Assembly (NCBI GenBank): GCA_009729775.1
Contig: GCA_009729775.1_4081.1
Strand: one strand, 5' to 3'
Length of the DNA stretch: 64,000 nt
From: Escherichia coli
GTDB taxonomy: Bacteria; Pseudomonadota; Gammaproteobacteria; Enterobacterales; Enterobacteriaceae
The notes under the pieces are model-generated. The model did not search any database. It was not told where the DNA came from and was given only the letters and a program-made list of their open reading frames with translations. Of the stretch, positions 57,293-57,357 are shown in pieces (the stretch's first letter is position 1; the number at the start of each line of letters is the position of its first letter). Position numbers and translations under genes: made by a program.

Positions 57293-57320
57293 GCCAGTAC
57301 TTGATACTGGCTTTTCTTAT
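57293..57320 (+). terminator. rho-independent terminator
   Basis: GCCAGTA-cttga-TACTGGC hairpin then T-tract. Confidence 0.6.
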
Positions 57321-57357
57321 TGTATTAAATATAGTATAATGAATAAAGGAGGGAATT
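57321..57357 (+). promoter_or_regulatory. conserved -10-like element TATAGTATAAT and AAAGGAGG RBS, no recognisable -35
   Basis: identical cassette precedes every RCC1-like paralog. Confidence 0.45.

What the first reader, a model, noticed from the sequence alone, without database searches (positions are those of the whole stretch)
57293..57357. RCC1-like genes have a conserved -10-only promoter cassette
Every paralog is preceded by the same about 65-bp unit: terminator hairpin GCCAGTA..TACTGGC, T-tract, then ...TTAAATATAGTATAATGAATAAAGGAGG..ATG. There is a good TATAAT but no -35 at proper spacing. That pattern is typical of phage late or middle promoters that need a phage-encoded factor, consistent with structural-gene timing.
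Basis: inference. Interest (0 to 1): 0.45.

Follow-up and report, generated by a model that had tools for sequence, protein, structure and literature searches.

The report
Late-promoter/terminator cassette between phage RCC1-like genes
Each gene in a tandem array of RCC1-like virion-protein genes of a jumbo E. coli phage has its own terminator, a promoter with no -35 element and a ribosome-binding site; the promoter is most likely an ordinary T4-type late promoter (core TAAATA), not a bare TATAAT box.

Summary
The window comes from a relative of the jumbo coliphages phAPEC6, PBECO4 and 121Q (Asteriusvirus). It carries at least 7 tandem RCC1-like genes. Six are preceded by the same unit: hairpin GCCAGTAC-loop-GTACTGGC, T tract, TTAAATAtagTATAAT, AAGGAGG, ATG. 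The first gene has the promoter part only.

The unit plus the first ~16 codons is 64-95% identical between paralogs. The rest of each gene is 10-48% identical.

No -35 element is present, judged against PBECO4's own early (TTGACA/CTTGCA) and middle-like (GGGACA) promoter classes.

Orthologous proteins were found in phAPEC6 virions by mass spectrometry, which fits late timing. PBECO4 encodes a gp55-type late sigma factor. The determinant, however, is probably TAAATA, 3 nt upstream of TATAAT. TAAATAT is invariant in all 47 unique cassettes from 6 phages. It is the only promoter element kept at the first RCC1 gene across 5 lineages and at the tail-tube gene across 6. TATAAT is not kept in either comparison. 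Other PBECO4 late genes show the same terminator, T tract, TAAATA layout.

This is a new member of a known kind, of low to moderate interest. No transcript 5' ends have been mapped.

The parts
56105..56119 (+). Promoter of the first RCC1-like gene: (GGGG)TAAATA-tga-TATAAT. It has no upstream hairpin. The TG before TATAAT gives it an extended -10 look.
   Evidence: The same GGGTAAATA is conserved at the first gene of the array in Munch, fENko-Kae01, Kaldavass, Yen9-04 and GAP32.
57293..57311 (+). Terminator hairpin of cassette 2 (GCCAGTACTTGATACTGGC), followed by the T tract at 57312-57325.
   Evidence: terminator scan: 15 sites against 4.3 expected. (-10 kcal/mol, z -3.2). (compensatory stem changes in Munch-like phages).
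57326..57331 (+). TAAATA, proposed T4-type late promoter core. It is preceded by T, giving TTAAATA.
   Evidence: Invariant in 47/47 unique cassettes. ATAAATA is the most enriched upstream 7-mer in PBECO4 (30 against 1.7 expected). Cross-genus footprints.
57335..57340 (+). In the late-promoter model it covers the transcription start (predicted +1 at 57336-57338).
   Evidence: TATAAC variants occur before intact genes. TATA at N3/N4 after TAAATA is enriched at gene-upstream TAAATA sites: 12/47 against 9/154, p = 4e-4.
57346..57360 (+). Shine-Dalgarno sequence AAGGAGG (57346-57352) and start codon ATG (57358).
57358..57405 (+). Conserved first ~16 codons (MLPFARMvkYGNIvP). This is part of the block repeated at nucleotide level.
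   Evidence: identity 0.95 and 0.71 in the first two 30-nt windows, then 0.1-0.48. The N-terminal M(L/I)PF..YGN motif is conserved across genera.
58474..58537 (+). Cassette 3: hairpin 58474-58492, TAAATA 58507-58512, TATAAT 58516-58521, ATG 58538.
59711..59777 (+). Cassette 4: hairpin 59711-59735, TAAATA 59747-59752, TATAAT 59756-59761, ATG 59778.
60975..61040 (+). Cassette 5: hairpin 60975-60995, TAAATA 61009-61014, TATAAC 61018-61023, ATG 61041. The gene is frameshifted after 59 codons.
62228..62291 (+). Cassette 6: hairpin 62228-62246, TAAATA 62261-62266, TATAAT 62270-62275, ATG 62292.
63450..63515 (+). Cassette 7: hairpin 63450-63469, TAAATA 63484-63489, TATAAT 63493-63498, ATG 63516.
56136..64000 (+). 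Tandem array of at least 7 RCC1-like genes: 56136-57284, 57358-58467, 58538-59725, 59778-60968, 61041-62220 (frameshifted), 62292-63443, and 63516 running off the window.
   Evidence: Pfam RCC1/RCC1_2/WD40_RLD. ORFs. Orthologous arrays in PBECO4, 121Q and phAPEC6.

Best explanation
Each cassette makes its RCC1-like gene a separate late transcription unit. The hairpin and T tract terminate the transcript of the upstream paralog. About 14 nt later lies a T4-type late promoter: core TAAATA(T), no -35 element. It is read by host RNA polymerase carrying the phage's gp55-type late sigma factor. Transcription is predicted to start about 5-7 nt downstream, inside the TATAAT (around 57336-57338). That gives a leader of about 20 nt with a strong AAGGAGG ribosome-binding site. 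The TATAAT is most likely the A/T-rich initiation region of the late promoter, not a sigma-70 -10 box. The T or G before TAAATA, in place of the usual A, may lower promoter strength to suit low-copy virion proteins. The cassette and the conserved N-terminal codons were copied along with the gene at each duplication, and they now also serve as the homology at which the array gains and loses copies. Shown: the anatomy, the conservation pattern, the absence of a -35, the presence of the proteins in virions, and a late sigma gene in a close relative. Inferred: which sigma factor reads the promoter, the start site, the timing, and termination.
For: (1) PBECO4 has three upstream motif classes. The first is AAAAAGTACTTGCA or TTGACA, 17 nt, TATAATgttttaca, before small early genes. 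The second is GGGACA or GAGACA, 16-17 nt, TGnTATAAT, before replication genes and the late sigma gene. The third is ATAAATA (30 against 1.7 expected) before the capsid, sheath, tube, baseplate and fibre genes. The cassette lacks both -35 types.
(2) TAAATAT is invariant in 38/38 Asteriusvirus and 9/9 Munch-like unique cassettes. TATAAT becomes TATAAC in 4 unique cassettes, including those before intact genes.
(3) At the first RCC1 gene, GGGTAAATA is kept in Asteriusvirus, Munch/fENko-Kae01, Kaldavass, Yen9-04 and GAP32. The next hexamer varies: TATAAT, ATAAGA, TTACAA, ATATTA.
(4) At the tail-tube gene, an undisputed late gene, hairpin, T tract and GCTAAATA are invariant in 6 lineages, while the downstream hexamer varies.
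(5) At least 10 other PBECO4 genes, mostly structural, have the same layout of terminator, 8-14 nt, TAAATA.
(6) PBECO4 gp530 matches the late sigma family phrog_234 (E = 8e-18).
(7) Eight proteins of the RCC1-like gene array, including orthologs of window genes 1, 6 and 7, were detected in phAPEC6 virions, and GAP32 gp001 likewise.
(8) T4 late promoters are TATAAATA at -13 to -6 and are read by gp55. In T4's relatives the base at -13 is poorly conserved, and -12 is C in phage Aeh1 (PMC1524935).
(9) Hairpin stability and compensatory stem changes support a terminator. GenBank annotators of Munch and UE-S1 also called these hairpins terminators.
Against: The base before TAAATA is T in the internal cassettes and G in copy 1. 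Among 47 other gene-upstream TAAATA sites in PBECO4 it is A in 31, C in 8, G in 5 and T in only 3, and T is the commonest base at non-promoter TAAATA. The cassette is therefore an atypical late promoter. TATAAT at exactly N3 is conserved in both Asteriusvirus and Munch-like internal cassettes, which is more than an initiation region would seem to need. The cassettes in one array descend from one ancestor, so their number is not independent evidence. The distance from TAAATA to the ATG (25-26 nt) lies at the short end of the late-gene range of 16-58 nt. The late sigma gene is not in this window and was checked only in PBECO4. Homologs of T4 gp33 and gp45 were reported missing in the related phage CBB. 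There are no transcript data for any phage of this group.
Confidence: 0.62

Rival explanations
1. TATAAT is a true sigma-70-type -10 hexamer used without a -35. It is read by host sigma-70 or by the phage's own sigma-70-family factor (homolog of PBECO4 gp356), with help from an unknown phage activator or from the upstream TAAATA acting as an extended element. That would make it a middle-like class or a distinct -10-only class.
For: The TATAAT consensus is perfect in 40 of 47 unique cassettes and is fixed at N3 from TAAATA in two phage lineages. Copy 1 has TGaTATAAT, an extended -10, and Munch has it too. PBECO4 encodes a sigma factor with regions 2, 3 and 4. TAAATA-N3/4-TATAAT or TATAAA also precedes the tube gene gp020 and the virion protein genes gp368, gp473, gp524, gp486 and gp499.
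Against: TATAAC, which loses the critical last T of a -10, sits before intact genes in PBECO4 and 121Q. The hexamer is not conserved at the first RCC1 gene or at the tube gene across genera, while TAAATA is. The internal cassettes lack TGn. Of 83 TATAAT sites upstream of non-RCC1 genes in PBECO4, 56 have a recognisable -35 (44 early-type, 12 GGGACA-type), and the cassette has neither. A start 7 nt after TATAAT would put the Shine-Dalgarno sequence at the very 5' end of the mRNA.
Confidence: 0.22
2. The block is not a promoter. Only the first gene has one, and the array is read as one long transcript that leaks through weak hairpins. The block is conserved because it was copied with each duplication and is homogenised by recombination, and because the ribosome-binding site and the N-terminal peptide are under selection.
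For: Some junctions do without the cassette and have only a Shine-Dalgarno sequence: PBECO4 gp286/gp287, 17 of 28 junctions in Munch-like phages, and all internal junctions in Yen9-04 and Kaldavass. Synonymous sites of the first 7 codons are identical in all window copies, which suggests recent homogenisation. The array indel between the window and phAPEC6 has its breakpoint inside the block.
Against: In Munch-like phages the hairpin sequence, the spacing to the ATG (24-26 nt against 17) and the ribosome-binding site have all diverged, and the proteins are about 30% identical, yet TTAAATAtnnTATAAT is unchanged. A terminator between genes would leave the downstream genes silent without a new promoter. 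The same layout precedes single-copy late genes.
Confidence: 0.08

Closest known systems
Bacteriophage T4 late promoters (TATAAATA at -13 to -6, read by gp55 with gp33 and the gp45 sliding clamp)
   Same: A short A/T-rich element at -10 with no -35. It lies upstream of virion-protein genes. The phage group encodes a gp55-type sigma factor. The six-base core TAAATA is identical.
   Different: The base at -12 is T or G rather than A. A near-perfect TATAAT follows at N3. The gp55-type protein is longer: PBECO4 gp530 is 279 aa in the record, against about 185 aa for T4 gp55 from my own recollection. gp33 and gp45 homologs were reported as not found in the related phage CBB. No experimental mapping exists.
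Predicted late promoters of Rak2-like jumbo phages (ATAAATA with an A/T-rich downstream region; CBB and GAP32, PMC5259590)
   Same: The same phage group, the same core, and the same association with structural genes. GAP32's RCC1-like gp001, a virion protein, has GGGTAAATA upstream.
   Different: The published consensus has A before TAAATA. The RCC1 cassettes were not described there, as far as the passages I searched show. The cassettes combine the promoter with a repeated terminator and a repeated start of the coding sequence.
CTAAATA late promoters of Aeromonas phage Aeh1 (PMC1524935)
   Same: They show that the base at -12 of a T4-type late promoter can differ between phages while TAAATA stays.
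   Different: In Aeh1 the change is genome-wide and matches a diverged gp55. Here A, C, G and T variants coexist in one genome.
Sigma-70 extended -10 (TGnTATAAT) promoters
   Same: They work without a -35 element, and copy 1 has the TG.
   Different: Internal cassettes have AGT, not TGn, before ATAAT, and the TATAAC variants would be inactive.
Intrinsic (Rho-independent) terminators
   Same: A G+C-rich stem of 7-9 bp, a loop of 3-5 nt, then a T-rich tract. GenBank annotators marked the homologous hairpins as terminators in Munch and UE-S1.
   Different: The stem arms are copies of the palindrome-derived words CAGTAC and GTACTG, which are about 13-14 times over-represented in the window. The T tract is interrupted (TTTTCTTATT).

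Membership tests
T4-type late promoter | Octamer TATAAATA, or a close variant, at about -13 to -6 | tested here: inconclusive
   TAAATA(T) is present and invariant. The two 5' positions are AT or GG rather than TA. T before TAAATA is seen at only 3 of 47 other gene-upstream TAAATA sites in PBECO4. C at that position is conserved at the tail-tube gene and occurs in phage Aeh1.
T4-type late promoter | No -35 element | tested here: met
   The best match to TTGACA at 16-18 nt spacing is 3/6, and there is no GGGACA box. The sigma-70 scan did not pick out the cassette TATAAT sites.
T4-type late promoter | The phage encodes a gp55-family sigma factor | tested here: met
   PBECO4 gp530 matches phrog_234 'late sigma transcription factor' (E = 8.4e-18) and phrog_12791 (E = 3e-154). 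Pfam and PDB sequence searches found nothing. The gene lies outside this window.
T4-type late promoter | Drives late (virion) genes | tested here: met
   Eight proteins of the RCC1-like gene array were detected in phAPEC6 virions by mass spectrometry (PMC7247149 Table 1). Window genes 1, 6 and 7 align at 96-98% nucleotide identity with gp549, gp005 and gp006. This shows protein in the particle, not transcript timing.
T4-type late promoter | Start site about 6 nt after the octamer, late timing, dependence on gp55 | not testable with these tools
   No transcript data were found for any Asteriusvirus or Rak2-like coliphage.
Sigma-70 -35/-10 promoter | TTGACA-like hexamer 16-18 nt upstream of TATAAT | tested here: not met
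Sigma-70 extended -10 promoter | TG at -15/-14 (TGnTATAAT) | tested here: not met
   Internal cassettes read TAGTATAAT. Only copy 1 reads TGATATAAT.
Intrinsic terminator | Stable G+C-rich hairpin directly followed by a U tract, on the strand of the upstream gene | tested here: met
   Stems of 7-9 bp, -10 to -13.5 kcal/mol, z -3.2 to -5.0, then TTTTCTTATT or similar. Compensatory pairs occur in Munch-like copies: GGCTAGTAC/GTACTAGCC, GACAGTAC/GTACTGTC, GGTCAGTAC/GTACTGACC.
Intrinsic terminator | Transcripts end at the U tract | not testable with these tools
   No 3'-end data exist.
Any Rfam RNA family | Match above the family's gathering score | tested here: not met
   The only hit was preQ1-II at 25.8 bits against a threshold of 47, E = 0.72.

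The most novel reading that the evidence does not exclude
TTAAATA-N3-TATAAT is a composite promoter of its own kind. A gp55-type late element is fused at fixed spacing to a sigma-70-type -10, so that each RCC1-like gene can be read by two holoenzymes, or by an enlarged gp55-type sigma that contacts both elements. In this reading, the 120-bp block is also kept identical because it is the joint at which paralogs are swapped, gained and lost, which would diversify low-copy virion surface proteins.
Probability: 0.15. Interest if true: 0.45.

Novelty: new member of a known kind. Interest (0 to 1): 0.27.

Why it matters
The finding gives a concrete, testable promoter assignment for the largest paralog family of the Asteriusvirus jumbo coliphages, whose regulation and function are undescribed. 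It also shows that the T4 early, middle and late promoter logic, together with paired terminator-promoter modules, extends to these 350-kb phages. In practice it supplies predicted start sites, a compact late-specific expression cassette for engineering these therapy-candidate phages, and an explanation for why the RCC1 array changes copy number between isolates. It does not change current understanding of phage transcription.

Tried and rejected
1. A hidden -35 element. I looked at 16-18 nt spacing for TTGACA and CTTGCA, and at 15-18 nt for the phage's GGGACA/GAGACA box, and found none.
2. An RNA element. The Rfam scan of 54000-64000 found nothing above threshold. The predicted leader and start of the coding sequence are no more structured than shuffled sequence (z +0.25 to +0.74). 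RNA structure therefore does not explain the conserved 5' coding block, and there is no stable Shine-Dalgarno-sequestering hairpin.
3. The cassette motif elsewhere in the window. The 15-mer with at most 1 mismatch occurs only in the array.
4. Published transcript data for PBECO4, 121Q, phAPEC6, RaK2, fENko-Kae01 and fEgEco12. I found none. The only related transcriptome is for the distant Pseudomonas phage PA5oct, which reports TATAATA/TTGAC promoters.
5. Pfam and PDB sequence searches of the late sigma candidate gave no hit. PHROGs did.
6. TATAAC as decay in a pseudogene. I rejected this because the same variant precedes intact 379-aa genes in PBECO4 and 121Q.
7. My first hairpin pattern search used the wrong loop length and found nothing relevant. 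The terminator scan and repeat finder covered that ground.
8. I did not run the large protein-database, structure-prediction or metagenome searches, because the question is about a DNA signal and the annotated phage genomes answered it.

Full report
**What the window is**

Region 56000-64000 matches jumbo E. coli phages of the genus Asteriusvirus (JP4, PBECO4, slurp01, UB and others) at 86-98% identity, in mosaic pieces. By protein search the closest relative is phAPEC6. Window genes 1, 2, 6 and 7 align at 96-98% nucleotide identity with phAPEC6 gp549, an unannotated gene at 2434-3540, gp005 and gp006.

The + strand from 56136 to the end of the window carries at least 7 tandem genes with Pfam RCC1, RCC1_2 and RCC1-like-domain matches. 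The preceding 56 kb is made of small minus-strand genes. In PBECO4 the orthologous array (gp286-gp296) is a plus-strand island between minus-strand genes.

**Checking the observation**

- The 23-mer TATAGTATAATGAATAAAGGAGG occurs six times, against none in 100 shuffles.
- The 15-mer TAAATATRRTATAAT with at most one mismatch occurs only at the seven RCC1 gene starts.
- The alignment shows, for copies 2-7: hairpin GCCAGTAC-loop-GTACTGGC, a T tract, gtatTAAATAtagTATAATgaataaAGGAGG, 5-7 nt, then ATGTTACCTTTTGCAAGAATG.
- The hairpins fold at -10 to -13.5 kcal/mol, with z between -3.2 and -5.0. The terminator scan picks them up; the 54000-64000 region has 15 terminator-like sites against 4.3 expected.
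- Copy 1 has no hairpin and reads ggggTAAATAtgaTATAAT.
- Copy 5 has TATAAC, and its reading frame breaks after 59 codons, as in PBECO4 gp291.
- Mean pairwise identity between the six complete units is 0.64-0.95 from -71 to +48 relative to the ATG. It is only 0.1-0.48 over the rest of the gene. The cassette and the first ~16 codons are therefore an island of conservation about 120 bp long, longer than the 65 bp reported.

**Is there really no -35?**

I fetched the whole PBECO4 genome, called ORFs crudely, and examined 251 upstream regions. The most enriched 7-mers define three classes.

1. A-rich tract, AGTACTTGCA or TTGACA, 17 nt, TATAATgttttaca. Dozens of these precede the small genes at 132-152 kb, the counterpart of the window's minus-strand genes.
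2. GGGACA or GAGACA, 16-17 nt, TGnTATAAT. These precede replication genes, the head protease gene and the late sigma gene.
3. ATAAATA (30 regions against 1.7 expected). This precedes the major head, sheath, tube, baseplate, portal-region and tail-fibre genes. The exact T4 octamer TATAAATA precedes the major head gene and several virion protein genes.

Of 83 TATAAT sites upstream of non-RCC1 genes, 44 have an early-type -35 and 12 a GGGACA-type box within one mismatch. The RCC1 cassettes have neither, with a best match of 3 of 6 to TTGACA inside the T tract. The absence of a -35 is real when judged against the phage's own promoters.

The related phage CBB was reported to have the same three predicted classes, with ATAAATA before structural genes (PMC5259590).

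**Which element matters?**

TAAATA lies three bases upstream of the TATAAT. Four lines of evidence favour it as the core.

- **Variation.** Among 45 paralog starts in the window, phAPEC6, PBECO4 and 121Q, 41 have the cassette. In 38 unique versions TAAATAT never varies, while TATAAT is TATAAC in four, including those before intact 379-aa genes. In the last, most diverged paralog the two elements overlap (CCTAAATATAAT). In the Munch-like phages (Munch and fENko-Kae01) the RCC1-like proteins are only about 25-32% identical to the window's. There the hairpin sequence, the ribosome-binding site and the spacing to the ATG have all changed. Their internal cassettes nevertheless read aatTAAATAta[gat]TATAAT.
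- **First gene of the array.** GGGTAAATA is kept in Asteriusvirus, Munch/fENko-Kae01, Kaldavass, Yersinia phage fHe-Yen9-04 and GAP32. The following hexamer is TATAAT, TATAAT, ATAAGA, TTACAA and ATATTA respectively.
- **An independent late gene.** Upstream of the tail-tube gene, hairpin, T tract and gcTAAATA are invariant in PBECO4, Salmonella phage 7t3, RaK2, Hallingskeid, GAP32 and Yen9-04. The next hexamer is TATAAT, ATATGA, ATAAAA, ATACTA, TATACA and ATATAA.
- **Architecture.** At least ten other PBECO4 genes, most of them structural, have a terminator followed 8-14 nt later by TAAATA. The cassette spacing is 14 nt.

T4 late promoters are TATAAATA at -13 to -6, read by gp55. In T4's relatives the base at -13 is poorly conserved, and -12 is C in phage Aeh1 (PMC1524935).

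PBECO4 gp530, annotated as a late sigma factor, matches the PHROG late sigma family at E = 8e-18. A second, sigma-70-family factor (gp356) is also encoded.

**Timing**

No transcript data exist for this phage group. Indirect support comes from virion mass spectrometry. In phAPEC6, eight proteins of the RCC1-like gene array (six of them listed in the paper's table as 'DNA condensation protein') were detected with 1-5 peptides each, including gp549, gp005 and gp006 (PMC7247149). The single RCC1-like protein of GAP32 was also found in virions. Low-abundance virion proteins are expected to be made late.

**Points against the late-promoter reading**

- The base before TAAATA is T in the internal cassettes and G in copy 1. 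At 47 other gene-upstream TAAATA sites in PBECO4 it is A in 31, C in 8, G in 5 and T in 3, while T is the commonest base at TAAATA elsewhere in the genome. The cassette is an atypical member of the class, possibly a deliberately weak one.
- TATAAT at a fixed N3 is conserved in two lineages.
- TATA at N3 or N4 after TAAATA is enriched at gene-upstream sites (12/47 against 9/154, Fisher p = 4e-4). Examples include the tube gene gp020, the tail-fibre gene gp515, and the virion protein genes gp368, gp473, gp524, gp486 and gp499.

I read that TATA as the initiation region, because an ATA 4-7 nt after TAAATA is the one downstream feature common to the six tube-gene promoters. A second recognition element, or a dual promoter, is not excluded.

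**Other features of the block**

The first codons are conserved as protein across genera (M-L/I-P-F-x-R/K-I/M-x-x-Y-G-N). This suggests a shared N-terminal function, perhaps attachment to the virion, but I did not test it.

In the window even the synonymous sites of the first seven codons are identical. The only large difference in array structure between the window and phAPEC6 is three extra paralogs in phAPEC6, and its breakpoint lies within window 57280-57403, that is, inside the block. The repeated block is therefore a site of unequal recombination. Whether it is selected for that role is unknown.

The leader and the start of the coding sequence are not structured, and no Rfam family matches.

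**Comparison with what is known, and novelty**

The terminator hairpins, and in UE-S1 a ~105-bp repeat_region, are already marked in the GenBank records of Munch and UE-S1. ATAAATA late promoters were already predicted for the phage group. Assigning the RCC1 cassettes to that class, and identifying TAAATA rather than TATAAT as the conserved core, is an incremental addition: a new member of a known kind.

**Verdict**

My confidences are:

| Explanation | Confidence |
|---|---|
| Terminator plus T4-type late promoter module | about 0.6 |
| Sigma-70-type -10-only promoter | about 0.2 |
| No internal promoters | under 0.1 |

Mapping transcript 5' ends would settle it: 57336-57338 for the late model against about 57347 for the sigma-70 model.

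Noticed in passing
Whole window (for example 54500-56100); also PBECO4 and loci L011-L016: The palindrome AGTACT occurs 253 times in 64 kb, against 21.6 expected from base composition. CAGTACTG occurs 60 times against 0.6 expected. PBECO4 has 891 copies of AGTACT in 348 kb, found in all three reading frames of ORFs (361/144/251). The motif is also 9-26 times enriched in loci from Munch, GAP32, Yen9-04, fENko-Kae01 and Kaldavass. It forms part of the early promoters and the arms of the cassette hairpins. I found no report of it, and its meaning is unknown; a protein-binding or DNA-structuring site is one possibility.
   Followed up: partly
61041-62220: RCC1-like gene 5 is frameshifted after 59 codons, and the rest of the protein continues in the +1 frame. 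The same break is present in PBECO4 (gp291, annotated from an internal start). This could be a conserved pseudogene, a programmed frameshift or a shared error. Its cassette has TATAAC.
   Followed up: partly
Start of every RCC1-like gene (for example 57358-57405): The N-terminal peptide MLPFARM-x-x-YGNI-x-P is conserved in all paralogs here, and as M(L/I)PF...YGN in phages of five lineages whose RCC1-like domains are otherwise about 25-32% identical. GAP32 gp002, a shorter virion structural protein, has it too. It may be a common docking or assembly signal for virion-associated beta-propeller proteins.
   Followed up: no
Window about 28000-54000, minus strand (by analogy with PBECO4 132-152 kb): In PBECO4 the small early genes each carry a highly stereotyped promoter, AAAAAGTACTTGCA (or TTGACA), 17 nt, gcgTATAATgttttacatc. 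A second class, GGGACA/GAGACA, 16-17 nt, TGnTATAAT, precedes replication genes and the late sigma gene, like a T4-style early/middle/late cascade. I did not scan the window's own minus-strand intergenic regions for these classes.
   Followed up: partly
Window 57280-57403, compared with phAPEC6 350100-2480: phAPEC6 has three more paralogs (gp550, gp551, gp001) between the orthologs of window genes 1 and 2. The alignment breakpoints overlap within the conserved cassette block, which indicates unequal recombination at the cassettes. The number of paralog starts found is 7 or more here, 12 in PBECO4, 12 in 121Q and about 17 in phAPEC6.
   Followed up: partly
phAPEC6 record MK817115.1, 2434-3540: An intact 369-aa RCC1-like gene, 99.5% identical in protein to window gene 2, is not annotated in the phAPEC6 GenBank record. 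One phAPEC6 cassette, upstream of an unannotated paralog start at about record coordinate 3, lacks the Shine-Dalgarno sequence.
   Followed up: no
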